Below, one piece after another: positions 23,337 through 61,900 of a stretch of DNA of 64,000 nucleotides; within the stretch, counting starts at the first letter, position 1, and each line of letters begins with the position of its first letter. The DNA lies in assembly GCF_964204645.1 (NCBI RefSeq), contig NC_134026.1, positions 10,749,950 to 10,813,949 on the forward strand, written 5' to 3'. A program made the translations under genes and the position numbers. The stretch is from Tubulanus polymorphus (Eukaryota; Animalia; Nemertea). The notes under the pieces were generated by a model. The model had not been told where the DNA came from. It searched no databases and saw only the letters and a program-made list of their open reading frames with translations.

Positions 23337-23840
23337 TACTGTCTGTCACACCTACTCTCCGTGCGACGTTTTGGTCCGTAATTTCGTTAATAATCGGTTT
23401 ATCTACCTTTATTATGCATCAATTTGTTCAGTGAGGAATTTGCATTCAGAAATAAACAACAATTTTTACTAAAGTTGTTTTTGTTTTCATTTATGAGCGA
23501 TAGTTTACTCAGCATACGCTCGCGTAATGCTGAAAAATCCGCTCCGCGGACGCTCGGAAACGTTACAGTGACGTCATCACCTGCTCATTAGCATATCAAA
23601 ATACAGTAGGTGGCGCTACGTGACGGGCCATAAAAGCCGTTTTTCAGCATTACGCGAGCGTATGCTGGGTGAACTATCGCTGATAGATGAAAACACAAAC
23701 AAATTTATGCCAGTTCATGATTTATTTCTGAATGCAAATTCCTTACTGAACAAATTGATGCATAATATTTACAGATCAACCGATTATTAACGAAATTACG
23801 AACCAAAACGTCGCACGAAGAGCATGTGTGACAGACAGTA
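23337..23840. mobile_element. Foldback MITE with ~200-bp inverted arms
   Basis: TACTGTCTGTCACA...TGTGACAGACAGTA; the arms pair to GCGTAATGCTGAAAAA. Confidence 0.8.
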
Positions 23841-24769: not shown

Positions 24770-25792
24770 AGCCTACCGCACATCGACACTGCGATTGGAG
24801 ACAACTAGTTGCAAGGCAGTTTTCGGCGCATGAGAGGAACTGGCTGGATACGATCAGTTGCTTGAATGTGTCGATGTGAGCGAGCTTACGATTGGTAAGC
24901 GTCGATCTATCTCCAGTTCCAGCCAGTTGCCCATGTTCTACTTTTGAGCAACTGGTTGTACTCAATCGCAGTCATATCCGTCGATGTGCGCGCTCTGGAC
25001 GTATCGGCCCCACTCCGCGCGGTTCCGCCACCGTGCGGGATTTACGCGAAGCAGCAAACACAAACATGGCCACTCTCTCAATTTTCAATGATAGAAATCG
25101 TGTGTGCATTTCAATTATTTCGGCTGTTAGGGTTTTAAGGCACAATATAAGTTGATGATGTGATATGGCGATGTTAATTAATGATAATTTCGCAGTGAAG
25201 CTAGTCACGAACGGTGCCGATTGAGTGTACAGCTGCCAAAAACACTGAAATGTGCGTAGTTGCGAAACTATTTGCAGTGAATTGCAGACGAAACATGAAG
25301 CTTTGACGGCCGTTTAAAAAAAAATTATACCAATCGCAATTGTAAAATAAAAATGAGATAGAACCTAAGTTAAAATTCTGGCCATTTCTAAAAATGTTAT
25401 TACTAATTTTTAGTCAGTGCCGAACGTTTAGTTTTCCAACAGTAATGAGGGGTGGTAGGTAGTCATGCAATTCAAGTCATCATTTATTACACGTTACTTC
25501 CGTGTTGTTGAAAATCTCGCGAGTCCTGGACCAAACCCCATTGAACAATGTGATCTGTGTGCTGGCCACAAATGCACACAGATCACACTACACTACCCAT
25601 TACAAACTCCAGTAACCACAGCTTTCATATATCCATCCAAATATTTAGAGTGTCTTTCTTCCTGGATCTCGACGATCGACACGCGCCATGCAGTTGCTGC
25701 AACTGACCGGTTGTATAGATTTCGATGTGCGCGGGGTAATCGTTCGGTAGCAACTAGTTGTCTCCAATCGCAGTGCCGATGTGCGCTAGGCT
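24770..25792. mobile_element. Harbinger-like MITE
   Basis: ~43-bp TIR AGCCTA.CGCACATCG.CACTGCGATTGGAGACAACTAGTTGC, flanked by TAA/TTA. Confidence 0.78.
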
Positions 25793-26071
25793 TTAGTGCT
25801 TGTGAAATTATGTGCCTTAAGTAGAGGCCTATTGTTTTTACCTTTGTGACGGTTTAAAATTTCACCTTAGTACATGTTGTAGCCATATCCTGATTTAAAA
25901 AAATAAATTTTCTTTGTCACTAAAAATAGATTCAAGATTCTCCTGATTTTAGCCTTCGTATGGTGTCTTTGCTGGTGTTTTGAGCAGAAAAGAGGCCCCG
26001 AAGGTTCACTTAAAGAAATCTTGATTTTTCACAAGATTCTTGAGAGTTTAAGTGAAATGGAGTTAGACAAG

Positions 26072-35047: not shown

Positions 35048-36257
<1,210 letters not shown>

Positions 36258-36549
36258 GTATTGTCGCGGGCGACAAAACCAAAATAATGAAATGTCGCGG
36301 GTGACAAAACCAAAATTATTGTTTTGTCGCGTTATTTTAGTTTTGTCGTTTTGTCGTAATGTCGCCCTCATTTGCATATTCTTGTTTTTTTTAAGCATGG
36401 CCCTTATCAGCCACCATAATAAAACGATCACAAAAAAGTCTCGTAAAACGAAACACTTGCGGTCAATCGAAATCCAAGCTGGATCTGATTTTTTGAGAGT
36501 TGAATTGGCTGAAGATGGCAGCACTAGCTGGGTACTTTGCGCGAAGTAA

Positions 36550-37720
36550 ATCCCGGATAAAAACGATTTCGAAATTTATGTTTGGTGATCAAGAGTTAGA
36601 GGTAGTTGAAGATTATGTTTATCTCGGAGTAAAATTTAATTGGAATGGTAACTTTGCTAAGGCAAAAAAGTTTTACGATAAAGCCATGAGAGCTATGTTT
36701 TCGATCGTTCAAAAAGGCAGACGTTTTAAATTGCCCATAGATGTTATGTTTAAATTATTTGATACGTCATCCTCGCTTGCCAGGGGTCCGGTATCACTCC
36801 CGAACTCGCTTCCACCAGCCCCCTGGCCTCACGAAGCGTGATTTCATTACTGGCGCTGTTGCGCATGACGTCATATATCGATTTGCGAAATACTTCCTTG
36901 TTCAGTAAAACGTTCGCTGATTGGTCCATTTAACGGGAAAACCAATAGAAGCCTAACGTCATTTGTTACAAGCGCTGTGATTGGTAACCGGATTCTGGTC
37001 GGCTAGTAAGGACTCCAACGACTCGTGAGGTCAAGGGGTTCGGCGAACAGCTTTAGCGTAGTGGGTTCGAATCCCTTGACGGGTGAAGATGTGATACGTG
37101 TGTTGCTCCAATAGCCATGTATGGGTATGAGATCTGGGGATACGAAAATCTTGATTTATTAGAAAATGTTCATTGCTTCTTCTGTAAAATCTTAATGAAA
37201 GTGACGAAATATTCTCGCAACTTACAAGTTTTATCAGAGCTAGGACGTTACCCTTTGAATATAGATGTTAGACGCAGGATGATTAACTTTTGGGTTAAAA
37301 CAGTATCTGGAAAGCAAACCAAACTTAATTCAATACTTTATAAAATATCTTTCAATTTATTTTTAAGGGATAAATTTAAGAGCCCTTGGTTATCATATAT
37401 AAAGAAAACCGTCTTTGATGACTGTGGTTTGTCCTGCATTTGGACGCAGCAATTCATGACTAATAGTAAATCTTTTTCAAAACGAATAAAACAGATACTC
37501 CGTGACCAGCACCTTCAAGAAACTGTATCTGCCATAAATACTAGTCCGATATACACTAACTTTAGGCAATATAAAAATGATATTAGGTTAGAGAAGTATA
37601 TAATAGAACTTGGTGTAACTTAGGAACTAGTTTATTTGAATTTAGGGTCGGGTCCTATATTTTACCTGTGAACAAATTTTCAAACCTTCATATAGACAGA
37701 GCCGATAGAATAGTGTTGTT
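36550..37720 (+). mobile_element. LINE 3' fragment (RT C-terminus; RTEX/CR1-like) split by a MITE
   Basis: YVYLGVKF...KLFDT | CVAPIAMYGYEIWG...ELGRYPL; the frame resumes after the 36768-37091 insertion. Confidence 0.8.
36768..37091. mobile_element. ~325-bp element with CATC...GATG ends (copy 2)
   Basis: 8-bp TSD TGATACGT; homologous to 5592-5917. Confidence 0.85.
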
Positions 37721-37959: not shown

Positions 37960-40900
37960 ATGGCGAGCGAAGTCGCTTTACAAACTCTGCAAAAACAACT
38001 CTCCCGAGTCTCTAGAATTAATTTGCCGGGTAATGTCTATGACAAACGACCCAGTTATTTTCTTTCTTATACGAGAGCAGTGGGTAAAAATGTTAGATGT
38101 GCCAATCTGAAGCCAGTGAAAAAAATAGAAGTTTTATTCGACCCGTATCATCAGCTATGTCGCTCGGCCAGGTGAGTGTCTTCGACACCGCAAAAAAACC
38201 ACCGCCGGTGTGGTACTCGTGCAAAATCTGTAGATCTCCGATGTCTCCGTTTCTCTTCACCAAGAACCTTTAAGACACGAATGACATTTTCTCGATACCT
38301 TTAAATCACTGACTTATGCACCAGTCAATAATGAAATCCCCGCCTGGGGGTCGGGAAACGAAAATTGGCGCAAATTAAGGATCGCTCAATTGGGTCTTTT
38401 TCCCCGCTACCGGTAACGTTATTTTTATCCCTGTTGTAGCGCTATGGATCGCCTACACACACAGGGATTCCTGCGTTAAGTATGCGGGGAATTGTGCGCC
38501 ACAGATCCCTGTGGATGTGGTATACGGGGAATACTTTTACTGAATAAAATCAAACTACAAAGCTAGGTATGTTCATGTCCGCGCGGGGCGCCACTATCGA
38601 TTGTGACGACCATTATTGATTAGGAAAAGTGTGATGCGCGTTTTTACTACGCGTTTTGACATCGCGTAGTAAAATCATTCATAAAACCTGTCTATCAATG
38701 CAAATAAGCTAAAATCTTTTGGAATCAACCAATAAGATCGATCTTTATCACTTGGGGGTTGGTTTAGTGTATAAATCCGCATTTTAGTCGAAGAAAATAG
38801 AAATCGAAATATACCCTTTTTCAAGAGCAAAATTCGTCAGCTTAGGACCAGGAATAAGCGACTAATCATCAGGGGCCGGTTCCATTGTCGAGACTTAAGT
38901 CCAAAAAGTGGTCTTAAATCTTAAGTCTGGTCTTATTTTCTTAAGACCGAACGTTTTCTGTTCCAGAGAGAAGACTTAAGCTTAAGCCACAGTCTTAAGT
39001 CTGATATTTTTAAGTCTGTCCATTAGTGGACTTGAATATTTAAGACCGGTCTTAACATCTAAGGAAAAATACAAAATGGCGCGTTTACTTTTGGGTATAA
39101 TTTTGCCAGCTCGAAAAGAAAGAGAAATTCGTCGGTTAGGTAACCCATTAGAGGTTTTTACCGCTGATGAGTTGAAAGAACGGTTTCGATTCAGGCCAGA
39201 GGGCATCGATTTTCTTGTGAGAACATTCGGAGACGCGTTGACGCCTATGCAGGATAACGAAAGAGGGAAACCAATCTCAGTAGTTTGGCAGATTTTAATC
39301 GCGCTTCGGTTTTATGCCACAGGGCATTTTCTGCAAGTAATTGGGGATACTTTTGGTATAGCGAAGAGTTCCGTTTCACGCATAATAACTCGAGTAACAA
39401 ATGCAATCTTTGACCAAATACCAAGATTTGTAAGATGGCCAACCGACGAAAATACAAAGCGCGAGATAATGCAAGGATTCTATGACATAGCCCATTTTCC
39501 ATCAGTTATTGGGTGCATCGACTGTACACACATCCGAATACAAAGACCACATCATCACAAAAATGACTACGTAAACCGCAAGCGGTATCATTCATTGAAT
39601 ATTCAAGCTGTTTGTGACAACAAAGGTAAACCCTCACCAAATTATTGGCATATTCATATTTTCGTCAATCCGAAGTTGATCAAAGAAATATTGGTTCATA
39701 GAAAATTGATATTTTCTAGGTCGTTTTACTAATGTAGTAGCGCGCTGGCCAGGAGCCACTCACGATAGCCATATCCTGCGAACTTCACAAATCGTGAGGT
39801 AAGTTTCACATTTTCAAGAATTGTAATGTAGAATTGTGAGGTGATTTGACTAAATATCCTACGTATAATAGGTATTTTGAGGGAAATCCTGCAATCGGAG
39901 GATTGAGAAATGGACTGGTTTTGGGAGATAGCGGCTATCCATTAAAACCGTACTTGATGACCCCATTTCATCAGCCCGGAGACAGGTCCGAAGAAAGTTA
40001 TAATAGGGCTCATAAGATGACTCGTAGCCTCATTGAAAGAACATTCGGAGTGTTGAAGCGTCGTTTCCACTGTCTTCATGGCGAAATTCGTATGGAGCCA
40101 GAAAAAGTTTGTAAGATATTTTCGGCGTGCGCGGTTTTGCATAATATAGCGATCAACTTGAATGAACCTTTAGATTTTGATGAAAACTTTGAAGTCGATT
40201 TGCCAGAACAAGAGGCTGTTCGTGAAGTACTTGGAAATCGCGGGCAAGAAACAAGAAATCACATTGTTCAAGAATATTTTTTGTAAATATTTAACCTCAA
40301 ATATATTTTTTTTGAGAATATTTATAACATGTATCGTATGGTAATATAAATTCAAAGAGTTAAACATAAAATAAATCATAACAATAACAATATGTTAATT
40401 GGCATTTGATTAAATTTAAATTTCTTGTTTTTTCAGTAGATTTAATTCAATTTTAATTTTTTCTATTTCGAGGTCAGTCTTCATCATCTTTCTTTTCACA
40501 TACTCCATCTGAAGCTCGATGAGATCTGCCTGTGTCGCCGTTCTCTTTTTCTTGTTGCCTATAATCAAATAGAATATTAAACTAAGCGTTCTATTCTAGT
40601 TCTTCAAAATTTCATTCATTTAAAAAATATCTACCATCAGCCTTAGATGAACTAGCTTGCTCTGTTTCTGCTGCCTGTAGTAGGCCTACTCCTGAAAAAC
40701 ACGTATATAATATCAAGATACCCAGTCGGGTTGCAGATGGAATACAGTATACCGGTATGTAACGTTTCCAATACTTACCTCCTTCAATCATGACATGCGG
40801 GCCATCTCCCATAGCTGTTTCAATCAGCGTTACATTTTTATTTGCTTGGTCATCTCCTTTAACGGTAAGAATATACTATTTATTCATGAAAGATTGAATA

Positions 40901-43900
40901 ATTTCATACGAGAATACCAATAGAGCTAAAAATAACTCGAAATACAATTTGTTTTATGTAGCGTACTAGTACTACTTGTCTATTTTTCAAACAAAAAATA
41001 CACTGGAATCATTTAAGCACTGTAAAAGAACTATATGTAAGCTTTACCTAGATTATTTGTCGTAATTGTGGGCAGAGGTATTGCATTGGGAGCTTCAATA
41101 TTTCGGATTTGCTCCGCTCCATCGTCTAAAATTAGAAACAATATGAATTTACGGGATTCGAACTATGCGTCAATTTAGCTTAGAATGGGAATATACTTCA
41201 TGGGAAAGAGCTGTCGCCTGACACTACGGTTTACGACGATGAGTTTATTAAATCATGTTTAATACTCGATTGCTATGGATTTAGCCGGGGATACAGTTCA
41301 GTCATGCAATGCTAGATTGGAATATAGTTAGATATATATGTGGATAAGTCTTCCAATAGCTGTCAAGGTAGGAATCTTCCTATAAAGTCAATTAGTTTGG
41401 GATTCGATTCAAATGTTGCCAGTTAGCAGGTGCGCGCCAGTTAGCAGGTGCGTGATCAGATGACGTACTAGGTCAGGGTCACCTTTGTTTACACACAGAC
41501 GAAAATGAGTTAGGGCAGGCTAGACTGATTCTGATAAAACAAACAAACTATGAGCTCTAGACAACTAACAAACACCCCACACCCTCACCATTCTTAAACA
41601 AATGGTGAATCGTGAATGATTTAAATCCAAAAAGATAGAAACAATAAACTTACTTTGTAGAATGAACGTTTCGACGCCGTCGATCCCGCACCACGTTGGA
41701 TTGTCACACCACAATTCGATCACGTTCTGAGTTGCCTGGTCCAACTCAGAGGGTGGAGGTCCTCCACCGGTTTTGGAAATCAAATTGTTTTGTTTAACGA
41801 ATTTCTTTTTCGCCTCCCCTTTGATATTCTTCCACTTTTTCTTGATTTCATCGACCGTTCTTCGCGCTACGCCGATCGCGTTCACTTTCGAGCAGATTTC
41901 TTCCCAAATTTCGCGTTTTCGTTTAGCGGTTATAGTATTGCTAAATGCACCCGATAAAATTGCGTTATTGTCATTAACTAATTTAACTAAAAGATTAGTT
42001 TCATCCGTCGTATAATTGAAAGATCTCTTCCGCGCGATACTGTCATTTAAAATCTCCGCCATTTTGGATTCAGTCTTAAGTCCTTAAAAAAGGGCTTAAG
42101 ACTGTCTTGACTAAGACCAACACTAAGACCACTCTTTGGAACGCAAAATTAAGACCAACTTAGCAAAGTCGGTCTTAGAGGATTTAAGACAAAAAATGAC
42201 TTAAGACTAGACTTATTTTAAGTCTCGACTATGGAACCGGGCCCAGGAATCGGAAGGTTTAGGATCTTAAAATTCAAATACTGAAGACCGCGTGATTTTA
42301 TTTCGTGTCGGGGCTTAGCGATCGCTGCCGGAAAAGTCGATGTCTAAGTTTTGTGTTGAAGCGAGCGATACAGAATGGCGGCCGGCACTTGTTATTGAAT
42401 GACGACGCGCCGCGCTGCTCGTGATGAGATCAATATTCAACAATTATTCATCGGTCTAGCGGTGAATTATTGTATTTATTTTCCGATTCATAATTATCAC
42501 TATATTTCTGAATATTAGGACAGATTTAGCGAAATGATCGGCAAAAAAAACATTTTTTTGAGCGCGGATCGCCACTACGCTCCCGTCGGTAAAGCGGCTG
42601 TTGAAAGAGGGAGGCGTCTAATGGGATGAATTGAGGGTTGTGACGGGCAAAAATAGAGGCGCGTGATGGGACAATGAGGCTCCCGAGGGGATTTTCCAAA
42701 AGCAGCAAAATTGAAATATATATAAAATATTGTGGAAATTTAGCTCAAAACAAAACAAATGGATTATTATTTGGTTATTATTAGTAGTATTATTACTATT
42801 GCTTGGTTTATGTTTCTAAACTGATTGATTTTATTATGATATCATGGATATATTTCAAATTTCAGCGTTTTGAGCTAGGCCAAGCCTGATTTTGTGCTTT
42901 TCTTAACTAAAATTCATTTAGCAAATAATATATAAAATTGGCATATTAAATCAATTTGCAATAGGAGCCTATGGCTATAGACCTAACTGACAGGCCTTGA
43001 TAATCATGTTTATTCATTTCAAAAATTATGTAGTGAAAAAAAGAATTTCAGCTGAAATCATATCAATATTTCTCAATATTTCACATTTTTTCTTGCCGTT
43101 ACCATGGAAACCTAATAATAATAATCTATATAATAATAGATATTCCTAGATAAACTTAGGGCAAACATAAACTATTGATAACTAGTTATTCTATCCCCTT
43201 TCTACATCATAACTTTTGATCTAACATCGATATTTTCATTATTTTACCATTTTTCGGCTGGTTTCCATGGAAACCATAGGCATTTGGAATCAGATAAAAA
43301 TTTTGGGTCTTTCAACTGTCACCTGAAAGTACTATGAGTGTATTGCTCTTTAAATTTCTAGTCTATCTCTTTTAGTTTAAGAGATATTGAAGTTTGTTTA
43401 CATTAAATATTGCCTTCTTAGATCACAGTTTTTGTGTATTGAAACATGAAGACACTTTTCGCTCAAATTTTCAAACTTCAATTTGCAATATCTCGAAAAC
43501 TACTGAAGATAATTCAAAAATTTAAAAAGCATATTGTTATTTGAGCCCTCCTCATTCCAATAAGCTTTCTTTCATTAAGATTGGAGCTATTTGAATTTTT
43601 TATGGATATAGCTAACAAAGCTTTTGCAAGTATTTGGCCTAGTTTTCTCCATTAAGATTTTATATATAACAGTGCTTCATCTAGCATTAAAAAAGGGCAG
43701 GGTGCTGATTTCTAATAAGGGCATTTTTACGCGTGATTCCATTGGAGCAAGGGCACAGAATAACGCACTCACGTCCGTTTTAGGGGCAACCTGCAATGTT
43801 CCCTATTGCGTAGAATCGAGGTACCCCCTACTACAATTGAGGACTAGAAACTATGTTTCACTCTTGCCATGAGTGACACACTTGACCACAGTACATCCTT

Positions 43901-46900: not shown

Positions 46901-49900
46901 TTGTCTACCACACTGATGTTTTGAAGTAACACGCCATATCCTGGGCGTATTATGGTTTCGGTCGGTAACGATCCCTGGATAAAAATCATAACTAGTGTTG
47001 TCCCTGAAAAAGTATAGGACACATTGTGAGTACAACGTAATTAGGAAATGGAACTACATCCGTCGTTTGTCCTTTTGCCTCCGAAATATCTCCAAGGGTG
47101 TTTTATCAATAAAACTATCTTCGAACTCCCATGTGCAATCTTTCATGCCACCTTCCATTTGACTAGGAATTGTTCATTTCCCCCTTATTAAAACGCGATT
47201 TCAAGATCTTTTCTACTGTAGGCCTATAAATATCATCTTCAAAATTATCCCCTGAATCATCGGAATCGGATTGATTCCCTTCATCCGCTTCGGTGTCAGG
47301 TAACGATTCGAATCACTAGGGTTGTGCACCTAGACACATCTTCTTTCCAAAAACTGGCCCTGTCAGATTCAAGATGGCCGACTGGCAGCCATTGTTGTTC
47401 GCCAAAATCAGCACTTTTTACACATTTTCGAAGTTTACAAGGGAAATTTGGAAGACACTTTGATCATTTACCTCGATCTTTCGATTATATTTGAATCTAC
47501 CAATGGCCTATCAGCATAAGAAAAATTGGGTCCATCTGACTCAAGATGGCCGTCCTATGACCTTTTTAGTGCCCAAAAATGTCAAATTTGGCCAGAATTC
47601 TAGGTCCTGGAGCTTCCTACTGGTTTGCCATTTCTCATTGCAATTTGTGATGGGTATTCTTTGTAAAGGGATGTTTTATACCTGAGACAGGTATTTTTGA
47701 TCTGCCAATTATGATGCAATTATGATGCAATTGGCGGCCATCTTGGTGTCATTAGTACTTATTTGTAGGTGGGAAAAAGTTTTTCGACATTATATTGATA
47801 CCTAAGCATATTTTGCTACAACAATGAATTAGAAAGTTGTAGCGTATAACGTGTTCTATGATTGGGGTGAGTTTCAAGTTCATTGTTTTTTGTATATGGC
47901 CACCAGGGGGCGTTGAATAATACAATATCTTAGTATTTCTATATTATATTTGTACCAATACATATTTTGTCACCGCAATCAATTGCAAAGTTGTATCTCA
48001 TGACATCTTCCATGATTATGGTGAGTTTTAAGGACATTAGTTAATGTATATGGTCACCAGGGGGCGTTGAATAGTAGAATAACCTGGTATTTCCTTATTA
48101 TATTGGTACCTAGGCATATTTTGTTACCATCAGCAATTGCAAAGTTGTAGTTCATGACATGTTCTATGAATATGGTGAGTAACAAGGTTATTGGGTTTTG
48201 AATATGGTCACCAGGGGGCGTTGAATAGTAGAATAACTTGTCAACCAGGCATTGTTTGTTATCACAATCAATTACAAAATCGTAGCTGCTGACATGTTTT
48301 ATGATTGTATTGAGTTTCAAGTAGTATACAAAATAGCGGTTCTGGCGCAGCCCGACCCCGGTTCTGGCGCAGCCCATCCTTACCCCGGTATACCGTGTTC
48401 CCTCTCAAAGCTTTATCTCCACCTAAATACCCTAAGAAGACAACCCCTGTGGACCGCGGTTCTGGCGCAGCCCATCCTTACCCCGGTATACCGTGTACCC
48501 TCGCATAGCTTTATCTCCACCTAAATACCCTAAGAAGACAACCCCTGTGGACCCCGGTTCTGGCGCAGCCCATCCTTACCCCGGTATACCGTGTACCCTC
48601 TCAAAGCTTTATCTCCACCTAAATACCCTAAGAAGACAACCCCTGTGGACCCCGGTTCTGGCGCAGCCCATCCTTACCCCAGTATACCGTGTACCCTCTC
48701 AAAGCTTTTTCTCCACCTAAATACCCTAAGAAGACAACCCCTGTGGACCATGGAAAACACGCCAAGGGGCCGGCAAACCCCCTCCGGCCCCTATAAACCA
48801 ACCGCTATAATGCACCTACAACAAAGTGTTATTTACATAGATATTTACAGTATATACAAGTATGTGAAACGCTCTGACCTGGAATTCACCTCTAAGCTGA
48901 CGCTATCAGCGGTGCGCTGCGACCTGATTGTCACTGATTGCGAAATAGCCTAGAAAGTTCTATGCTGACGCAGAAGCCGGCAAACAACCGAGACATCGGC
49001 AGGCAACCAGAGCCATGTCCCTTGGACATGGCCAGGCCCGGCCAACACACCAGGTGAAGCGCGTCTCGTGAAAGTCCTGGTTCACTCACCAAGGTGGATA
49101 TAGATTCTGCGTGGTCAGAAATGGACACAGATCTGATCTATCAAAACCTGGTGAGTGACATTAAAGCCAGGTTGCCGAAAACCCTGAAACAGCGGAAATG
49201 TGAATTACGGAAGACGCTGTTCAAGAATGAAGCCGGCTCGAAAGAATTCTTCGGCCTAGTGAGAAAAATCAGCAAACTCAACAAGGCAAATCGGTTCTTT
49301 ACAACAGCCAAGCAGATTATTACGGGTTCCCCGAGCAATCAAACGCTGGAGGATGCATTTCCGACTAAACGACGGGTGAAGGAATACTTCATGGACCTGT
49401 ATTCTAGTAAGCAGACCGGTCCTATTCCTAAGCCACCCGTCAAGAACGTTGCGTTCCCGTTCGATATGTCACCCATAACCGCAGCTGAAATCGAAAAAGC
49501 CTTGAAGAGCAGCAACCCAAAGTCCGCTCCAGGTCTAGACAGGATCAAATACGGACATCTCCGTCAGCACACCCATCGACTCGCGCGATTTTACAACGAC
49601 ATACTAGATACGGGAAGGCCACCTTCGAAAATCTCGGTGTGGTGCACCAGTGTTGTGACGCTTCTATTCAAGAAAGGGGACCGCCGGGATCCTGCTAACT
49701 ATCGTCTGATTGCGGTTACAAGCGTGATCTCGTGGCTCCTTCATCGGATAATGGCGAAACGCATAGAACGCCACGTCATTAGGAACGGATTCATCGACAC
49801 TGCCGTACAAAAAGGATTCGTGTCGGGTCTTCACGGGACACTGGAACATTCTGAATTATTAGAGACTAAAATCATCGAAGCCGAAAAAACTGAAAATGAC

Positions 49901-52900
49901 TCATTTGTGACTTTATTTGACCTTAAAAATGCATTCGGTTCAATCGAACACGAACTGGTAAGTGAAACGCTATCTGTCATTGGAATTCCCGCAAGTTGGT
50001 ATAGGTACCTAACGGCTCTGTATTCTCAAATTTCTAGCAAATTCAAAGGTCCTTGGGGCATGGTCGATATCCCCTACAAACGAGGGGTCTTTCAGGGTTG
50101 CCCTCTTAGCCCCCTAATTTTCATCCTGTGCGTAGAACCCCTCGTTAGAATACTGTCAACCGGGACATCCCTAGCCTATGCAGATGACACAACGCTGGAA
50201 ACAAAATCGGCAAAAGCCCACTTAGATATAACGTACGCGTTTAACAAAAAAGCCAAGGAAATGAACCTTGAACTCAGGCCGGACAAATGCGTTTCCCTGA
50301 GTGTTAGACGCGGATGAATTGAGCCATTCAAAAACGAGATAGAGGGCAAAGACACCGCGACCCTCACCGATTTGGACAGAACGTATCTAGGCAAAATTTT
50401 CAGTCCCAAGGGACAGGAAGGGGTGGGTGAAATTCTCCTCACAAAATTCAGGCAACGACTCGCAAACATAGATAACGCCGATATATAAAGCGGGACAAAG
50501 GTTCATATCGCTATAGACTATATGCTGAGAGCTGATTACCATGACCTCATGATCAACGACCTGTCTGATAATTGCTTGCAGTTAATCGACAGTGTCTTTG
50601 TAAACACGCTACATAAATGGGGTCACCGTCGATTGCTCACTTTTCGAGTACCGTCCACCGTATACCACTGGCTTCATGCATTGAAGGTCTACTTCCTTAT
50701 CACTTCTCCCGACGAAACAATCGTTGAAGTAGCCATCTCGAAATTCGAAAACAGCCATTATCTCGATCTCGCTTTCGAATCCCTCAACCATAAAAACTCG
50801 AAGGCGTTCATAAAACGCCACTACTTAGGAATATTCGCACACGCCACCCCCGACCCAGAAAAATTCCCCTGTAGCTCTAAGGCGTTTGACGTATTCGACA
50901 TCTATCCGGAGCATATACCCGAAGTGTATACAGACGGCTCGTGCATGAGAAACGGTGCAGACGAGGCTCGTGCGGGCTACGGCGTCTACTGGGGACCAGA
51001 CAGTCCCTTAAACACCTGTGGCGTCGTCTATCCACCTACCAACAACAGAGGTGAATTAACCGCGGTCGTCATGGCTCTCAATCAGGCCATCCAGCTTGGT
51101 ATTAACTCCTTGAAAATTTTCACCGACTCGAAATACGTTATAAACGGTATCACTGATTGGATCAAGACGTGGAAAGCCAGGTGCTGGAAAAACGTCAAAA
51201 ACCGCGATCTCTGGACACAACTGGATGGTCTGAATAACCGAGTCTCCGTATCTTTCAAATACGTCGGGGTTCACCAGGGGGTACACGGGAATGAGATGGC
51301 GGACCAACTAGCTAAATCGGGAGCAGCTCTCAATGGTAGTAATCCGGGGGTGACGTGTCTCTGTAAAACTCTAACGTTAACCTCCATCCAGCTTTTTTAT
51401 GATGGAAGCCCTGGCCTGCTCCCTGCCCTGCCTGATGAGGTCCTTTTTTGTAGCCTCGTCGATCGTGATCGACCCGTGTTTTTTACGAGCCTGTGACTTG
51501 ATATCCTGTTTCAAAGTCTGATAGTTCCTCTGTTCGGCTAGAATCAGCTTGAACTCGTCATCCGAAACAACTCCATCACTTATTGCCCTCGATACAAGAT
51601 CTGACACGGTGCTTAGTTTGGAAAAGGCTAACACTCGAATTTCGTCGTGCTTTTTAGCCTTGATCAGAAGCTTCCGACCGACTATCTTCCCAGACACGCC
51701 TAAGACACCTAGGACGGTCGCTACGGGGATGGTGATTATGTTTGTAAGCAAGCCAGCGGCTCCCGTAGCCGCGACTGCTATGCTAGCCGTCACGAAAGCC
51801 GCATCAAATCCATCTATGGTGTTTACCGCCCTTTTATACTTCTTGTAGAGCGCAGCGCGGGATTGTCCCTCGGACTCTAAAATTTTCTGGACTTCGCATA
51901 TTTTCTGCAGTTGGAAGTTCGACGCATCTTCGGTTGGAGCACTAGGCTCAGTTGGAACCATTGGGTAAAGTTAAGTGTCGCTATCCATGCTATATACTAT
52001 GCGGGAAAATGTCGAGCTCGATGTGGAGTGAAGCTATCGTAGCTATTGCTCGAGTAGCGGGCGATCTCGACGACTTGAAATTGATGACGTCGCCCTCGGC
52101 CAATTCGAGTGGTGGAGAGAACGTTTTGACCGCGGCTTGGAAGACTCCTTTACCTTGGGGTTTGATCGGGCCCTGTAAAAGCCGAGCCTCTTTCGTGATT
52201 TCTCCTTTTTCCACCCTGTTGACGGTCAGCACTACTGTGGTATTAGTTGTTAAGTCGCCACCGGAGAGGCTCATTTTTAGCACTCTCCCCCGACACATCA
52301 TCGTGTAGCCCGCGTACTGGGCTCGCGACCCATCACCGTACGAAAGTTCGTAACAGCCCTCACCAAGGGGTCCTTTTTCCTCGGCCCAAACGGTTGTCAC
52401 AGGTTTTGTGGTTGACTGTGTTTTCTCTAATCCCCTGTACAAGTTCATCTCTATTCTAATGCGAGCAAAATTTGGAGTGGTTCCTGGAATCGAATCTCCT
52501 CCATGTCCCGATTGAAAACCTTGACCACTACGTCGACGAAGCCGCCTTCCTTAATTGGTATCGGTACCCCGTAAACGTACTCGAATTAGTCGCCGTATTG
52601 ACCTGCTTTCAGATGTAAAATGGCGATCAGGTCCGAGGGCACCCCGTTTAGGAAGTTTCTCGATTCGTCAACGAGATTGCATGTTACGCGGTATTCCGTA
52701 TGCCTGGTAAACCTACATTCTTTCGTACCCCTTATGCTAACCTCTTTACCTTCGACGTTTGGGTAATATCCTTCCGGGACTCCCAACAGATCGGTGATGG
52801 AGCCGCTGAAGAGCACTCGGTACGGTTTTTTGACGTTGAGTTCGATGCGCCCCCTCGCCTCCACGTAGGCTATGTTAATGAAGCCCAGTTTGTGACCGTT

Positions 52901-55900
52901 TCGGGTTATGACTCGCTGAATTTCGTCGTTCAAACTCTCAACCGTGTAAAGTCCATTCCTGATAATCAAGTTGAACACTTTTTGTTGGTGCTCGTCCACC
53001 TTTTCTCTGGTCATGTAGCGAAACCTGTGGTTGTTCATTTTGTCGGAAACGTTGAAGTAAGCCAGAGGAATGACAGCCCGTCTTAAGGCCACAGTTTTGA
53101 AGCCACCCGTGTCGAGATGCGTTTTTAGACGCACGGTCGGATCCTTACCGTAACAGTGGATGACTAACATCCTTCCTATATCTAACGCGAGAATTTCTTG
53201 CTCAGGACTTGGAAAGACAGACCGACTGCAGCGATAAACAACAACACCAAGTGCTCGGCCACGAATCCGACTGCTTCTCCGGCTTTCCTCAACAGGAAGC
53301 TAACCACCGTTCCGATCATTCCCGGCAACGCGGCAGCTCCTTTCCCTGCGAGATATTTAAGAAACGCCGCGAACTTTTTCAGAGCTTCTCGAATCCTGGA
53401 CTTGGGTTCTTTTCCCGGTCCAACCGGCGGACTGGGTGTTACTACGCTTTTGAGCCCGTTCGTGATTGCGAGCCCGATGCTCGTGATAGTCATAACGACG
53501 GCCGTGACAACGCTCACCAACATAATCCCTTCCTGTTTGAACAACTCCCGGATCTTTACGCCGAGGGGCCGATTATCTTCGTTCTTCAGAAGCCTCTTCA
53601 ACCTCTCGATCTGAGAAGTCTCCCCCTGCCGTAGAGCCTCGTAGGTCCGCCTGTATATTGCTTCCTGAGCTTCGAACCTTTCTACTTCGTCGTCCCAGTA
53701 TCGGATGTCTTGTTCGGACACCGCGTCATCGCGCTCTTTCTGAACCTTTTTTAGTTCTCGTTGGGCCCATTCCACGTTTACAGCTGCTGACTTAATTTTG
53801 CTGGACGTAGAAACCAAAGTGGTAGCTACCCCCCGGAGTTCACGTCTGTCTTCTGGTCTCAGCGGAGCCCTGTCGTCATTGACGATGTCCTCTATTTCCT
53901 GCTGCAAACTCAATTCGTTATCCACCGGCAATCGATCCACGATAGATGGTTCCAACGGGTCTCGTTCCATTCTCACTGGTCTGTCCGGGCCCAGAGCATG
54001 GAAAAACTCAGAGCCCCCTTTCGCTTTCGAGATGGTACTATGCGCGAGTACTTGTACCGGTAAGTTTCACCCGAACTGGATCACCGTTCAGTTCCGTCTG
54101 AAAGAACCAGGTATCGTCTTGTTTTCGTAGTTGCAGGCGCATCAGGGCTCGCTCCATGTCGTCCAGGTTACCGCCGAATTTACCGAGCAGCGAGTCGATG
54201 ATGCCGTCTTTTTCTCCCAGGTTTTCCATGGGAATGAGCTCGCCTACTGCGTCATCTTGAGGCTCCACGTCCCAGTCTATCGGATCAACGTCGAATTCCG
54301 CCATCGTCTATAATTAACCCAGGAATTTCTGCAAGAATCGGAAACATCGAACTCGTCCATTTGTTTTTGGATCCACTCCTCGTACGCTTCCCACAAATTC
54401 CAGTTTTGTGCCAAAGCAAATTTCGACACTGGTTCTTTCCCGAACTTACGTTCCGGCTTTCCATGTAGCTCGAGGATTCGGTTTAAGAAGAATCCGTAGG
54501 AAAGGAAGTTTTTCCGACGAGGGAACTTTTCGAGGAAGAGTTGATAGACGTCGGCGAAGCAATATCTGATCGTCGCGCATGTAGGAATGTCGAGAAACCC
54601 ACCGTCCAAACCGAGGTTTGATAGTCGTAATTCGCCGGAGGGATGTGGACTTGTTTCGGTTTCGGAACCTTTTTGATCTGCAACCGAAGAGGAGGGTTTA
54701 CGTAGTCTTCGAGTTCTCTCTCGAGCCTTTCGAGATCAAACTCCTTAGGCAATATACCGTAGGGGTCGTCCATAACTTACAGATACTTGTACGCGATGAC
54801 ACCGGTCAGAATTACACCGCCTAATATAATGGCGTACTCACTGTTCAATTGGGCGTCTGAAGGGGTATAGAAATCGCCTAGCACCGGCCGCTGGCTCAAA
54901 GATAATTTGTCGTTCCTGGTACTGTTGTAAAGCCTAAGGGCCTCATCGACGTCCGAAAAGTCGGATTTTGTCTGCATCTCTTTTTGCAGCTCCCTGTTGA
55001 GGTAGTCCAGTGTCTTTTGCCGTTTCTCGTTCCAGGTCACCATTGCCGCGTTCAATCGCTCCATAGCCTTTTCGTGCCTCTCTCGTTCTTGGGCAGCTCC
55101 GGAGTCGCCTTGTACCGCTCTATAGATTGCTTGGCCTCCAGTAAATGCCACAGCGTTCGCTATGGCACCGCCGATGATAACCGCTGCAGTTGCCATGATT
55201 AGGTCCCTATATTTGGGGGCAGAATTTTCGACTTCTCCAGGTTATCCTTGGAGATGGTTGCTAAAGAAACCGCAACGGTGAGTTTCATAGCTTCGGAAAG
55301 GTCAGCCTTGGAGGGATCACCCACATCGAAGCGTAGCATTTTCTTCCCGAGCAGCGCGTACCCTATGGTCAGTCCGCTTAGAACGGCCGAGTGATAAAGT
55401 ACATTTGCGATTGTTCGATAGTCTGGATTCGTTGCCATCGTGCTATATCTATCACCAGAAAATTTAGGTCATCTCCACAAGGCGACAATTTAAAGGTTCG
55501 GGTGTTGGTTCCGTGTTTTCTTCGGGTTTCGGGGTTTGGTTTAGCGCCATTCTCTGATAGTATAGAGCTCCGAGGCCCACTAACAACCCGCCTATCGCGA
55601 TCCACATTTGCAGGTGTTTTGACTAGGCTCTGTTTTCGTCGTCGGAACCGACAATCGGGGCAGCCGTTTTCTTCGAGGCTCGCTGCTGCCTACTAATTTC
55701 GGCAAGCTTTTTGCCCCATGCGACTCGACCAGGGGACTTTTGTTTATGCGGGTTAGTCGTCACTTGTTCCACTTGTTCAAGTTCCATCCCTATATGCAAG
55801 AGCGGAAAATACGACTTACGGGAAAGTGGACAAGTTACTTATCGGCAAGTGGACTAGTTACTTGCGGACAAGTCACTTTCCTCAGAATCTGCCATATTCT

Positions 55901-58900
55901 TCCCGGTGATTACCGCCACGTTCGCGATTGCGAGTATGGGAGTCTTCAGAATCCTACCCAGATGGCCGAGCTGGTTTTTCATCTCGGCGGTGATAACAAA
56001 GTTTTCAGTCAACTCCTTGTTTAGCTGTTCTGCGTCTACGTTAGGTCTGAACCACTTGCAGAGCTTGGAATAACCGTAGAGTATGCTGTTGATCAGACTG
56101 TCGGAAACCGCGGCAGAGTAACGGTTTTCGTACTCCGTCCACACCCAAAGCGCTTGGCATCATCGACAGGCTGTCTAGGACGATAAAGGAGATCATTTTC
56201 AAGGATTTCACCGAAAGAGAAACCGTCGTGTGGTACGATCGTTTGCAAGATTACGTAGATGGCTACAACGCTACACCTCACGGGGTTATTTCAGATATGA
56301 CTCCCGAAGAGGCCGGAGAATCCCGAAATGAAGAAAGGTTACTGTTCGAAAATATCGGCAAATCCGAACCCCCTGAGAGCCCGTTCAAGCCAGGCAACAG
56401 CGTAAGGAAAAAGCTGAAAAGACCCGCGTTCAAAAAGGGTTACAAACAGATATGGGGCCAAACAGTGCACTCCCTCGCGTCTGTGGAAGGCTTAAAAGGG
56501 GTCCTCGATAATGGAGAATCAGCTAGGTTGGACGATCTGCAACTAGTGATACCTCCAGCTGAAAAGAAGACGACGTTAGACGCTGTGTCCGTAGCCGACA
56601 AAGAGCACAAGATAGGGCTGACTATCAAGCACAAGGAGGGTTTGTCACCCGAAGCGGTAATGCCCTCAAATAGCAGATACAGCCTGCGATCTAAAGCTCG
56701 TTGAGCAATTCCTCGACGTACTCGTCCAACGGAGTCCTGGCATTTTTGTGGCCGTAAGCGAGCGTAGCGATACGCGGCTGTCAGCGTAAAGCTCCCCTTA
56801 GCGGCTGACGCAACCAGTCTGTCAAGTGGGGCCAGCAACAACTGCACAGAATCGATGAACTGCAAATTACCGAGACTGAATGAGATGTACTTCTCCATGT
56901 TATTCGGGATGCACGTTATCTTTCCTTCAGTCCGACCGATTGCCTGCATGATGAGATGAGAGTCGTAACCGCGGAGGTTGTGAAACACGACCGGTATAGG
57001 CGTGTATTTCGCGGACAGTCGCAACTTGAGGTTGCACTCGTCGTGGGCCGGGCCCCGGTAGTCACCCGTTATGTGATCGTGATCCCTGACCCGATCCTCA
57101 TAGAGTGGTTTGTCGCATACGTAGCAATTTTCCGCTTCCCCGAATGATGTTTGCTCCTCCCGAGTAGTTACCATAGGCGCGGGATGGGCGAGCACACCCT
57201 TGATTTTCTCCTCTTCCCCTTGGAGGTGCTGAAGGAATACCGCCGCAGCGTCTTGGCCTCTATAAAGGACGGGTGGTTCGTGTTTACCGTCGCTTCTCAC
57301 TACCACGTACGAGAACCCGCACGCCTCGTGAAGTTGAGTCTTTTCGCTACCTTTCTGGTTCGGGTTCCTTCCGGGGCCCTCGAATTTGGTTGTAATGGCT
57401 TCGAAGTCGGCGTAGATGACGAACGGAATCTTGAGCTGCTTGTAATGATTGGTGAACCGCAGCACTTTGTCCTCCTCCGAGGGCATACTGGTACGCATCG
57501 GACGTCCGTTGACTCCTCGACAATCTGACCTGTGCCTCTCCAGGAGATCTTCTCTGGTGAAACAATGAAGGCACCGCTCGCAGAAGTGTTTCCTCCCTTC
57601 AAACTTACTCTGGGTGAACAACAGGCGATTGAGGTCTTTGATCCATGTGTAATGCTGTTTCTCACCGCTCTCTACGAGTAGCAAGTTAATTCTAGGAATG
57701 GGGGCCTGGCCATCGCTGATATGCAGTGGGTACACGCCTTTGTCATACCCGAACACGTTGATTGCCAGTCCGTTTTGTCGTTCGACCATAGGAATCTGAC
57801 TCAATGGTGTTGGTGAATCGATGCCTGTAAAGTCAAGCTGGTCCCAGTGATTCGCATACTTCGATGGCCTCTGGGGGTCTCTCTCTACGGGGTATTTCGA
57901 GGCCAGTATTGACCACTTAAGGCAGTAATCATCTCTATTTTTGACATTTACGACGGCGTGTAAGAACCGCCTCTCAACGGTTGATATCTGGCGATATTCA
58001 GGAATAGTTCGACTACCCTCTCTACAGCCCATCCGGAACCTTCTCTCATATAATTCTCAATACTCTGTAAAACCCTAGCTTCAGCTTTACCCAACTCCTC
58101 ATTTATGTTAGCCGCCTTCGATACAACGTATTGCTTCGACCAGAAGGGCGGCTCGACGTGCGCATAGGTGCCGTCGTTCTTCTCCTTCCTCAACGAAACC
58201 CGCAGAGCAATGGAGAATTTTACACCCTTAAGGTCAATGATCTCCTCGACTAACTTCTCCCTTACATTGTTCCGCTGTCCGCGCAAGAATATCGACGGAT
58301 CAGTCACATCGGTGGCTGGTCTCAAAACCCAGGCCCTCAGATAATTTTGGATAGCAAACGGGGCCCTATGAAACGCGGGTTCTGGCTCCGGTAGATTCTC
58401 ATCCCAAATCGGATCATCGTCCGGTATAATGTTTTCTACCTTGTACTTGGGTTTTCTGGGGGCGGGTTTTGGCTTTCTCGGAGCAGGCGTCGGTCTGCGG
58501 GTCAACTGGTTGATGGCATCGGCATATGTTGCGACAGTAATCTGCCCGTCTTGAAGTAAATCGGTCAGACTTTTTACCGCGCTGTCCATTTTGCTTTCGT
58601 ATATATGAGAAATGTATGTCTCCAAATGGAAATTTTTGGGGGGCCCCCTGTGAGAAGTCGGCACACGCCGTGTGTTGGCCGGGCCTGGCCATGTCCAAGG
58701 GACATGACTCTGGTTGCCTGCCGATGTCTCGGTTGTTTGCCGGCTTCTGCTTTAGCATAGAACTTTCTAGGCTATTTCGCAATCAGTGACAATCAGGTCG
58801 CAGCGCACCGCTGATAGCGTCAGCTTAGAGGTGAATTCCAGGTCAGAGCATTTCACATACTTGTATATACTGTAAATATCTATGTAAATAACACTCTGTT

Positions 58901-61900
58901 GTAGGTGCATTATAGCGGTTGGTTTATAGGGGCCGGAGGGGGTTTGCCGGCCCCTTGGCGTGTTTTCCATGGTCCACAGGGGTTGTATTCTTAGGGTATT
59001 TAGGTGGAGATAAAGCTTTGAGAGGGTACATGGTATACCGGGGTAAGGATGGGCTGCGCCAGAACCGCGGTCCACAGGGGTTGTCTTCTTAGGGTATTTA
59101 GGTGGAGATAAAGCTATGCGAGGGTACACGGTATACCGGGGTAAGGATGGGCTGCGCCAGAACCGGGGTCCACAGGGGTTGTCTTCTTAGGGTATTTAGG
59201 TGGAGATAAAGCTTTGAGAGGGTACGCGGTATACCGGGGTAAGGATGGGCTGCGCCAGAACCGGGGTCGGGCTGCGCCAGAACCGCTATTTTGTATACTA
59301 CTGTTTCAAGGTCATTGGTTTTTGTATATGGTCACCAGAGGGCGTTGAATATTGAAATTGTTAGATTGTTGAGCATTTGAAACCACTTCCCAAGTGGGCA
59401 TGGTGTCCCTGGACCCCTAGTTTTGGGGGGAGAGTACATTGCTTGCACGTGTTTCACTACGCGGCTACGGCCACAATGGTTGCGCTATCATAGGCCTAAA
59501 TCATTTCCAAACCGCATTGTTTTGATAGCTTTGACAAAGCCATGTTTATATACTAAAACAGCTTTCCAGGGTAATATTGCATGTGAGTCATTGATTGGTC
59601 TCTTGGCGAAAAGAAGCTGCTTCATTCATGATGTAATTGATGCATCCTCGCCTCATTGCACATACGTGCAATGGCTCATTTGAATAAAGAAATCAACAAA
59701 TACAAACAAAATGGCGGTCTTTCTCGCCGATTTAAAGCTCAATTTTCGAGAATATTCATCAATCCTTCAAAACAGTGTAAAATGGATATAAAAACTATGA
59801 TTTATCTTGACTGCACAACTCTGCTGATTCGATTAAGACCTATTTGAGGTATGCACACCCAAAATTAAGCGAAATATCCCAAAAAGATAGTGGACAATCA
59901 AAAATAAATAGTATTAAGTCCTACATTTTTCTTCAGATCAATTCCAAATTTAGTATGAATGTTCTATGGACCAAGGCCTATAAAGTTATAGTTTTTTTTT
60001 TGATTCGTCCCCCCTGGGGGTGGAATTTCTCTTTCTTCAAATCGCTACTAGTCCTTCAGTTTTAATCAGATCAAATTGAAATTTAGTATGAATGTTCTAT
60101 GGGCCAAGGCCTTTAAACTGAAAGTTATAGAGCCATTTTTAGCCCACTTAGGAGTTAAGTCCCAGCGGGCTATCGCGTTCACTTTTCGTCCGTCGTCCAT
60201 AGACGGAATCCAGTTATTTTGGAAAGTTTTGAAGACGCTTCAATGTAATGTCTTGATATTTGGTTTATACATGTATCTACCCTAGACACATCTTCAGCAC
60301 AAAAACTGGCCTTCTCAGACTCAAGATGGCTGACTGGCAGCCATTGTTTTTCGCCAAATTCAGCACTTTTTACACATTTTTGAAGTTTTTGAGGGAAATT
60401 TTTGAAGGCGCTTTTATCAATTACCTTGATCTTCCAGATATATTTGTTTCCCCCAAGCGCCCATCAGCATGAGAAAAATTGGGTCGATTAGACTCAAGAT
60501 GGCCGTCCTGTGACCTATTTGGTGCCCAAAAATGTAAATTTTTGCCTGAATTCTGAGTCCTGTAACATCCTAATGGTTTGCCATTTTTCATTGCAATTTG
60601 TGATGGGTATTCTTTGAAAATAGATATTTTATACCTGAGACAGGTATTTTTGATCAGCCAATTATGACGCAATTGGCGGCCATCTTGGTGTCATCATTAC
60701 TCATACGTAGGTGGAAAAAAGTATTTCCACATTATAATGATACCTAAGCATATTTTTTTACCACAATCGATTTGAAAGTTGTACCTCATAACGTGTTATA
60801 TGATTGTGGTGAGTTTCAAGGTCATTAGTTTTTGTATATGGCCACCAGGGGGCATTGAACAATGCAATAACTTAGTATTTCTATATTATATTTGTACCTA
60901 TGCATATTTTGTTACCACAATCGAATGAAAAGTTGTAGCTTATGACATGTTAAATGATTGTGTTGAGTTTCAAGGTCACTAGTTATTTCATACAGTCACC
61001 AGGTGGCGTTGAAAAGTAGAATAGCTTAGTATTTCCTTATTATATTGATACCTAAACATATTTTGTAACCATGATCAATTGCAAAGTTGTAGCTCATAAC
61101 ATTTTCTATGAAATCTGTGAGTTTCGAAGTCACTGGGCTTTGCATATGGTCACCAGGGGGCATGGAATATTAGAATAACTTAGTATTTCCTTATTATATT
61201 GGTAACTAGGCATACTTTGTTACCGTAATCAAAAAATCGTAATAAAAAAATAACAAACAGTAGACTCTTATTTACCAAGTACCAGCAATCTAATTGGTCT
61301 CTTTTCTTTATTAGGGAATTGGCGTATATTTTCACATTCAAGAAAATACGCAATACGAATTTAGGATGTGCTATGAAAACAACTGTGAAGTCGGACATGT
61401 CACCACCAGAAATTAAAATCCAATTCGGTACGTGTAGAAATTCGTATACATGATTTTTTGAAATTTTCATAAACGATTATTTTATCACTGGGATCAATTT
61501 AGACTTGCATGATTTTAAGCCCACTTTGGACTTTAGTCCCAGCAGGCTATTGCGTTCACTTTTCTTCCGTTCGTCCGTCCGTTAGACGGAATCCAGTTAT
61601 TTTAGGAAGTTTTGAAGACGCTTCGATGTAATGCCTTGATATTTGGGTTACACATGTATCTACCCTAGACACATCTTCAGCCCAAAAACTGGCCCAGTCA
61701 GAATCAAGATGGCCAACTGGCAGCCATTGAGTTCGCCAAAATCCCACTTTTAACACATTTTTGAAGTTTATGAGGGAAATTTTGAAGACGCTTTGATCAA
61801 TTACCTTGATGGTTCGTATATATTTGAACCCCATTGGTCATTGGTTTTTGTATATGGCCACCAGGGGGCGTTGAATAATACAATAACTTAGTATTTCTAT

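What the first reader, a model, noticed from the sequence alone, without database searches (positions are those of the whole stretch)
49500..51330. Unusual architecture: RLE-clade-like RT with cellular-type RNase H1 instead of a restriction-like endonuclease
Seen: RT signatures QKGF...G..EH and DLKNAFGSI.H; no CCHC finger or PD..D nuclease after the thumb region and no APE before the RT. The RNase H keeps the tryptophan-rich basic protrusion (ITDWIKTWKARCWK..KNRDLW) and the His loop (HQGVHGNEMAD). Known: these RT motifs resemble R2/NeSL/HERO-type elements, which normally end in an RLE, while RNase H in LINEs is mostly found in APE clades. Inference: a nuclease-free RT that depends on another priming or integration route, possibly the Polinton integrase or terminal protein.
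Basis: partly seen in the sequence, partly recalled or inferred. Interest (0 to 1): 0.75.

Follow-up and report, generated by a model that had tools for sequence, protein, structure and literature searches.

The report
Polinton virus keeps nuclease-free reverse transcriptase
A virus-like DNA transposon (Polinton) in this genome carries a retrotransposon-derived reverse transcriptase fused to RNase H, with no DNA-cutting domain; a distant relative has it beside the same gene, so it is likely a long-kept viral enzyme that would copy RNA onto existing DNA ends.

Summary
Observation confirmed and extended. The gene (49121-~51340, two stops in this copy) lies just inside the left inverted repeat of an 11-kb, internally deleted Polinton (6-bp target duplication). 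It encodes an R2-fold RT plus eukaryote-type RNase H1 with all catalytic residues, and no APE, CCHC knuckle or RLE. It is not a chance fragment: an uninterrupted 733-aa relative starts and ends in register; nine nuclease-free RTs form one clade (99/99) nested among RLE-bearing elements; six RT-only members end at a shared acidic-Tyr motif; a 49%-identical relative on an unrelated contig faces the same Polinton gene with silent sites saturated; read depth in other individuals equals that of the Polinton genes (5-10 copies); and it has the Polinton genes' ATATAG start motif and almost no 3' UTR. Best reading: a LINE RT that lost its nuclease and became an accessory Polinton gene (about 0.8), likely extending existing viral DNA 3' ends from RNA (about 0.45 overall). 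Rivals: selfish homing, protein-primed defence. Function untested; Polinton context shown for only two lineages. No description found in ten literature searches.

The parts
48314..48319 (+). left copy of 6-bp target-site duplication (GTTTCA), in a host 154-bp repeat
   Evidence: sequence; right copy at 59303-59308
48320..49050 (.). left terminal inverted repeat (~730 bp, starts AGTAGT, holds four 98-bp tandem units)
   Evidence: (I1, I2: 97-98% complementary)
49098..49103 (+). ATATAG motif 17 nt before the RT start codon, shared with Polinton genes
   Evidence: 6 of 7 ATATAG in the element lie 1-17 nt before an ORF-opening ATG
49121..50900 (+). non-LTR-type RT: N-terminal extension, fingers, palm (YADD 50177), thumb and helical linker; two in-frame stops in this copy (50315-17, 50486-88)
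   Evidence: fold of relative P0003 matches R2Bm 260-873 (Z 33.5, rmsd 3.8, 498 aligned)
50921..51334 (+). RNase H1-type domain with D-E-D-H-D and basic protrusion
   Evidence: relative's fold vs human RNase H1 Z 24.2, rmsd 1.2, 144 aligned
51377..51970 (-). convergent Polinton gene with two hydrophobic helices; same neighbour in L003
   Evidence: 36% to L003; 35-38% to L088, L089
51990..56159 (-). further Polinton genes, incl. VLTF3-like (54277-54735) and homologues of L088 and L083 genes
56093..56704 (+). integrase fragment
   Evidence: 25-26% to rve ORFs of L083, L084; junction near 56146
56773..58590 (-). N-terminal part of the Polinton DNA polymerase with EndoVII insert; rest deleted in this copy, frame broken near 57960
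   Evidence: (31-40% to 1,200-1,300-aa ORFs of 7 viral contigs); polymerase name rests on recalled motifs, Pfam shows only EndoVII
58670..59302 (.). right terminal inverted repeat (three 98-bp units, ends ACTACT)

Best explanation
This is a reverse transcriptase-RNase H gene, descended from RLE-type LINEs and lacking any endonuclease, that sits inside a Polinton and is likely a long-kept accessory viral gene whose protein would copy RNA onto DNA 3' ends that already exist in the replicating element. Shown: architecture, ancestry, position, copy number, conserved neighbour, purifying selection. Inferred: (1) it is expressed from the inverted-repeat side as a mirror image of the DNA polymerase, both starting 70-80 bp inside a repeat; (2) with no nuclease it primes on nascent strands, breaks or genome ends of the linear viral DNA; (3) RNase H removes the RNA from the hybrid so that a second strand can be made; (4) the benefit is repair of viral DNA and occasional capture of host messages as intron-free genes. 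The window copy itself is a decayed one. Odds: about 0.8 for a stable nuclease-free Polinton gene, about 0.45 with this mechanism.
For: P0003/P0122 (733 aa, 40% identity, 99% cover) start and end in register; P0002 ends in register. Pfam on the 11 aligned members: RVT_1 11 of 11, RNase_H 4 of 11, APE or zf-RVT 0 of 11. Careful tree of 50 chosen RTs: 9 nuclease-free rows one clade (99/99), nested in RLE-bearing rows (98/93, 97/96), apart from 6 APE-type rows. The 4 fused RNase H domains form one clade (92/85) among eukaryote-type enzymes. L003, 1 of 80 metagenome loci kept, has the same convergent neighbour (E 1e-11), a gene also in L088, which carries A32 ATPase, double-jelly-roll capsid and rve-chromo integrase. 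Window vs L003: 49% amino-acid identity, codon positions 0.60/0.69/0.36, fourfold sites 0.29 over 120. Depth in run X5: 61.7 over the RT, 65.1 over other genes, 144.6 on the repeat, 6-8 on low-copy host DNA; X1 contigs join repeat to RT and RNase H to the neighbour. Most X5 reads lack both stops and close the frame about ten codons after RNase H. No UTR, poly(A) or own target duplication; R2 needs its 3' UTR (PMC13580325 passages). Poxviruses capture host genes via LINE-1 (PMC9578705 abstract).
Against: No activity, template, primer or transcript was tested. Polinton context is shown for 2 lineages only (window species, L003); the other 7 lineages lie on 1.1-3.3-kb contigs whose DNA I could not read. 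0 of 7 related Polinton-like viral loci carry it, so it is dispensable. No captured host gene was recognised in this copy. In cytomegalovirus the L1 endonuclease, the part missing here, is what is reported to aid replication (PMC11369119 discussion). Conserved position also fits homing. L003's own frame is broken near its 5' end. The RNase H tree is short and its clade is unstarred; RNase H-bearing RTs are not firmly one clade (80/82; P0138 joins them).
Confidence: 0.45

Rival explanations
1. Selfish homing element: the RT copies its own mRNA into one site of RT-less Polintons, using nicks or nascent 3' ends supplied by the Polinton (for example by the EndoVII insert of its polymerase or by its integrase), so its own nuclease became redundant.
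For: Same site in two divergent Polintons; purifying selection; N-terminal RNA-binding extension retained in the fold; EndoVII domain in the polymerase; RT-less relatives exist.
Against: No UTR or folded RNA at either end (z -1.9 to +1.4); Polinton-type start motif; no joint skipping the whole gene among the 15 of 24 joints shown, and flat depth.
Confidence: 0.22
2. Protein-primed RT used in conflict: a conserved tyrosine in the flexible acidic tail primes DNA synthesis without any DNA primer, as in bacterial defence RTs, giving a product that blocks competing viruses or host RNA defences; RNase H was added later in one branch.
For: 6 of 6 apparently complete RT-only members (5 independent) end in [ED]YP[ED], 0 of 329 other fetched proteins over 300 aa do; the tail is flexible in the model (pLDDT 36); DRT9 primes on C-terminal tyrosines (PMC12483538 passages); the neighbour gene gives a weak SLATT lead (0.79) and DRT10 has a SLATT effector (search listing).
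Against: P0002 has Phe at the matching place; in fused forms the motif is internal; the neighbour gene also occurs in RT-less Polintons; no template RNA found; no coordinates were available to measure tail-to-active-site distance.
Confidence: 0.15
3. Passenger: a LINE inserted once, lost both ends by deletion and is merely carried by the Polinton, like the Daphne LINE cargo reported in butterfly polintons.
For: Two stops in this copy; LINE and LTR cargo in polintons is reported (bioRxiv 2025.02.07.637071 section 13; PMC12220804 passages).
Against: Ends in register across relatives at 26-51% identity; saturated silent sites with conserved protein beside the same gene; no excess depth from free copies at 85% likeness or more; stops absent from most reads of another individual.
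Confidence: 0.07
4. Retro-replicating hybrid: RT, RNase H and the Polinton integrase together copy the whole element through RNA, replacing the DNA polymerase.
For: RT, RNase H and an rve integrase lie in one element, and this copy lacks the polymerase's catalytic part; loss of polB beside retroelement cargo was seen in insects.
Against: Reads from other copies run on past the 56773 and 56146 junctions, so the deletions are copy-specific; inverted rather than direct repeats; genes on both strands.
Confidence: 0.05

Closest known systems
RLE-encoding non-LTR retrotransposons (R2, NeSL/Utopia, HERO; five clades per PMC4640811 passages)
   Same: RT sequence motifs and fold (R2 structures rank 1-6); nearest tree neighbours are 880-1,090-aa proteins with CCHC and RLE motifs. 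The label 'Hero-like' for these neighbours is recalled, not tested against named references.
   Different: No CCHC knuckle, no RLE, no N-terminal zinc finger/Myb, no UTRs or poly(A); C-terminal RNase H1 or a short acidic-Tyr tail instead; fixed inside a Polinton.
Oomycete Utopia, and RNase H-bearing I-group, plant L1, Proto1, Dualen/RandI (PMC4640811 passages)
   Same: non-LTR RT joined to an RNase H
   Different: Utopia's RNase H is archaeal-type (Arg for His), upstream of the RT, with RLE kept; the others keep an APE. Here it is eukaryote-type with His, downstream, and no nuclease.
LINE/LTR cargo in polintons and PLVs (bioRxiv 2025.02.07.637071; PMC12220804)
   Same: retroelement RT inside a Polinton-type element that stays mobile
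   Different: Those are recent insertions, 95% identical to an active host family or flanked by repeats; this one is old, trimmed to gene size, under selection, with no free parent seen.
LINE-type RTs annotated in large dsDNA viruses (entomopoxvirus MSV061, Hokovirus, Mimivirus, lymphocystis virus; 'MegaRT' of bioRxiv 2024.03.25.586562)
   Same: 480-710-aa RTs of similar fold in dsDNA viruses; two giant-virus RTs (L001, L002) fall in the same broad RLE group; MegaRT was suggested to drive gene duplication
   Different: Separate long branches outside this clade, no RNase H within those loci, no terminal motif; different virus class; none characterised in what I read.
Polinton/Maverick (adintovirus-type) elements
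   Same: long inverted repeats, 6-bp duplication, EndoVII-bearing polymerase, integrase, shared small genes
   Different: RT-RNase H gene is not in the gene sets in the passages read or in 7 of 7 related loci; this copy lacks ATPase, protease and major capsid.

Membership tests
RLE-type non-LTR retrotransposon | non-LTR RT of the RLE lineage | tested here: met
RLE-type non-LTR retrotransposon | CCHC knuckle followed by restriction-like endonuclease | tested here: not met
   relatives end at RNase H or at the Tyr motif
RLE-type non-LTR retrotransposon | 5' and 3' UTRs, own insertion signature, copies dispersed apart from a carrier | tested here: not met
   gap to neighbour about 10 nt (other copies) and 66 nt (L003)
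APE-type LINE with RNase H (I group, Proto1, plant L1) | N-terminal APE and RT grouping with APE clades | tested here: not met
   (6 APE-side rows only; no named Proto1 or Dualen reference was available)
HERO clade specifically | RT groups with named HERO references | not testable with these tools
   no named HERO sequence was returned by any search
eukaryotic RNase H1 type | D-E-D-H-D, basic protrusion, grouping with cellular enzymes | tested here: met
   donor lineage unresolved
Polinton/Maverick | long terminal inverted repeats and 6-bp target duplication (the 6-bp rule is recalled) | tested here: met
Polinton/Maverick | protein-primed DNA polymerase B and rve integrase | tested here: inconclusive
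   fragments only; homologous to ORFs of Polinton-like contigs
Polinton/Maverick (autonomous copy) | packaging ATPase, protease, major capsid | tested here: not met
   none among 12 non-RT ORFs; this copy is a deleted derivative, other copies run on past its junctions
protein-primed RTs (DRT9, Abi) | covalent priming on a tyrosine of the RT | not testable with these tools
   motif only

The most novel reading that the evidence does not exclude
An undescribed clade of nuclease-free, LINE-derived reverse transcriptases has been domesticated by Polinton viruses and primes DNA synthesis on its own C-terminal tyrosine, making it a eukaryotic-virus counterpart of bacterial defence RTs, with RNase H added in one branch.
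Probability: 0.15. Interest if true: 0.9.

Novelty: new variant of a known kind. Interest (0 to 1): 0.7.

Why it matters
Polintons are DNA-to-DNA replicators with no known need for an RT. A lineage that has kept a LINE RT, stripped of its nuclease, long enough to saturate silent sites suggests a dsDNA virus can own the machinery that poxviruses borrow from host LINE-1 for gene capture. It also gives a testable, compact natural enzyme (620-733 aa) for asking what RTs in dsDNA viruses do, and a nick-dependent R2-type RT with built-in RNase H could be of use in RNA-templated genome writing.

Tried and rejected
No whole genome is held. IMG/VR scans with A1, P0002, A3 and the neighbour gene gave no family locus; the polymerase scan gave 7 loci, none with RT. 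Prokaryotic genome scan: 14 loci, distant LINE-like ORFs, none with RNase H or Polinton genes. No RNA holder was listed; run X7 gave only three short pieces, no evidence either way. RNA folding near the gene ends: nothing beyond z -1.9. Bacterial promoter scan uninformative. PHROGs and PDB sequence searches did not name the small Polinton genes or the integrase fragment. The first low-copy control stretch was mostly repeats; only 11 of 30 bins were used. Atlas search with P0003 gave generic RT-RNase H clusters at 0.90 or less. Earlier-finding look-ups gave nothing on this locus. Complex prediction not used. Literature searches found no description; Repbase, subscription papers and supplements (including the annotated contig files of bioRxiv 2024.03.25.586562) were not seen and could hold such a gene.
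Full report
Observation. The frame opens at ATG 49121, is broken by two stops (codons 50315-17 and 50486-88) and in this copy reads on to 51496. I read 49121-51334 with X at the stops (P0001, 738 aa). Pfam finds RVT_1 and RNase_H and nothing else. RT catalytic motifs (DLKNAFGS, YADD) and the five RNase H residues are present; CCHC, RLE and APE motifs are not.

Surroundings. The gene starts 71 bp inside the left arm of a 630-730-bp inverted repeat pair, 48320-49050 and 58670-59302, 97-98% complementary, with AGTAGT/ACTACT ends and GTTTCA duplicated on both sides, inserted in a host 154-bp repeat. GC is about 0.50 inside against 0.35-0.40 outside. The other ORFs match genes of Polinton-like viral contigs: polymerase N-terminus with EndoVII insert (31-40% to 7 of 7 loci), integrase fragment, VLTF3-like gene, and the RT's convergent neighbour (35-38% to L088, L089). 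L088 carries A32 ATPase, double-jelly-roll capsid and rve-chromo integrase. The window copy has none of ATPase, protease or major capsid among 12 ORFs scanned, and reads from other copies leave it at 56146 and 56773, so it is a deleted derivative. The polymerase starts about 80 bp inside the right repeat, mirroring the RT. Six of seven ATATAG motifs in the element lie 1-17 nt before an ORF-opening ATG; one is the RT's. That the host is an animal is inferred from the element types and repeat content.

Other copies. In raw reads of another individual (X5) depth is 61.7 over the RT bins, 65.1 over the other genes and 144.6 on the repeat; 11 low-copy host bins give mean 8.3, median 6.4; X1 contigs give 197 against 33-38. 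That is roughly 5-10 copies, with no excess that would mark free LINE copies at 85% likeness or more. X1 contigs span repeat-to-RT (49019-50916) and RNase H-to-neighbour (51065-51985). Most reads lack the two stops (33 of 43 and 59 of 59 differ there) and 72 of 72 close the frame about ten codons after RNase H, just short of the neighbour's stop. Only the best-supported rows were shown (40 of 370 differences, 15 of 24 joints, 23 of 116 loose ends).

Relatives. A word-based search (192 hits, 120 listed) gave P0003 (733 aa, 40%, 99% cover), P0002 (partial, 50%) with RT plus RNase H, and P0004, P0005 (620 aa) with the RT alone, ending where RNase H begins. An exhaustive profile search (best 150 of 143,466 hits) added P0132, P0138, P0141, P0178; a third (120 of 624) added P0291. 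No family member among those listed is longer than 738 aa; lower-ranked ones cannot be excluded. Six of six apparently complete RT-only proteins end in [ED]YP[ED]; 0 of 329 other fetched proteins do; P0138 and P0141, on 1.7- and 1.1-kb contigs, do not and look cut. Pfam finds no APE or zinc knuckle in 11 of 11 aligned members. The next hits are 880-1,090-aa proteins with CCHC and RLE motifs.

Trees. FastTree on 213 RT regions gave a 10-row nuclease-free clade (86) beside RLE elements. IQ-TREE on 50 rows that I chose from these (9 family, 22 near RLE, 13 other RLE-side, 6 APE-side; P0122, P0274, P0141 left out) gave the family 99/99, nested in RLE-bearing rows at 98/93 and 97/96; loss of the nuclease is thus derived if the root lies toward the APE rows. 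Group labels come from motif rules, not named references. The four fused RNase H domains form one clade (92/85, unstarred) within the eukaryote-type side of a 31-row tree that held only one LINE RNase H.

Conserved context. Of 80 metagenome loci kept from 190, one (L003, P0002's contig) is a family member, and it alone of 82 loci matches a window Polinton protein: the same convergent neighbour, 36%, E 1e-11. Against the window, 524 codons show 49% amino-acid identity, position identities 0.60/0.69/0.36 and fourfold-site identity 0.29; the neighbour shows 34% and 0.24. Both RT and RNase H were therefore kept by selection after the two Polintons split, unless two insertions hit the same site. 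The DNA around the other seven lineages could not be read.

Structure. The P0003 model (pLDDT 79) matches R2 proteins first; residues 3-568 align to R2Bm 260-873 (Z 33.5, rmsd 3.8, 498 aligned) and 588-731 to human RNase H1 (Z 24.2, rmsd 1.2, 144 aligned), joined by a low-confidence linker. The RT-only P0004 folds compactly (pLDDT 88, pTM 0.85) with a flexible last ten residues; its nearest viral models are LINE-type RTs of large dsDNA viruses.

Mechanism. Shown: a nuclease-free RT with or without RNase H, gene-sized, fixed in a Polinton lineage. Inferred: an R2-type RT normally primes on a nick made by its own RLE and binds its 3' UTR (PMC13580325 passages); lacking both, it must use 3' ends supplied by the virus or a protein primer, and has no obvious dedicated template. 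I commit to end-primed copying of RNA on viral DNA, for repair and gene capture (0.45), against homing (0.22), tyrosine priming in a conflict role (0.15), passenger (0.07) and retro-replication (0.05). Against my reading: the gene is absent from 7 of 7 related viral loci, no captured gene is evident, and in cytomegalovirus the L1 endonuclease is the helpful part (PMC11369119 abstract and discussion).

Literature. Seen as passages: PMC4640811, PMC5678591, PMC13580325, PMC12220804, PMC6431247, PMC12483538; passages plus one section: bioRxiv 2024.03.25.586562 and 2025.02.07.637071; term count only, zero mentions of RT: bioRxiv 2026.10.13.758929; abstract: PMC9578705; search listings only for DRT10. 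Ten searches found recent retroelement cargo in polintons and RTs in giant viruses, but no stable nuclease-free RT-RNase H gene in Polintons. Supplements and Repbase were not seen.

Verdict. Real, not an artefact of decay. Not a member of any LINE clade by the defining nuclease; best filed as a new variant: a LINE-derived RT family domesticated by, or homing in, Polintons. Interest 0.7.

Noticed in passing
window 38986-42083: Broken DDE_Tnp_4 transposase on + and a Myb/SANT protein on -, the pair typical of PIF/Harbinger transposons (family name recalled).
   Followed up: no
window 36078-36575 (-): Fragment of another RT (RVT_1, E 1.5e-08), not compared with the family.
   Followed up: no
window 23300-23850 and 24716-25826: Two very high-copy repeats, about 200 and 500 times low-copy depth in X5, with sharp read ends at 24994 and 25667.
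   Followed up: no
window 48354-48749 and 58971-59268: 98-bp tandem units inside the inverted repeats differ in number between the ends (4 and 3); no stable RNA fold.
   Followed up: partly
P0291: RT-only member with an insert of two C2H2-like motifs ahead of the RT core.
   Followed up: no
L001:9587-11410, L002:4986-7049: Giant-virus contigs hold 607- and 687-aa RTs that fall on long branches in the same broad RLE group but outside this family: possibly separate captures by dsDNA viruses.
   Followed up: partly
window 51377-51970 (-): Neighbour gene belongs to large unnamed Atlas clusters (0.93-0.94) with a weak SLATT lead at 0.79.
   Followed up: partly
P0275, P0276, P0280: Stand-alone 153-157-aa RNase H1-like proteins of moths are among the best matches to the RNase H domain.
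   Followed up: no
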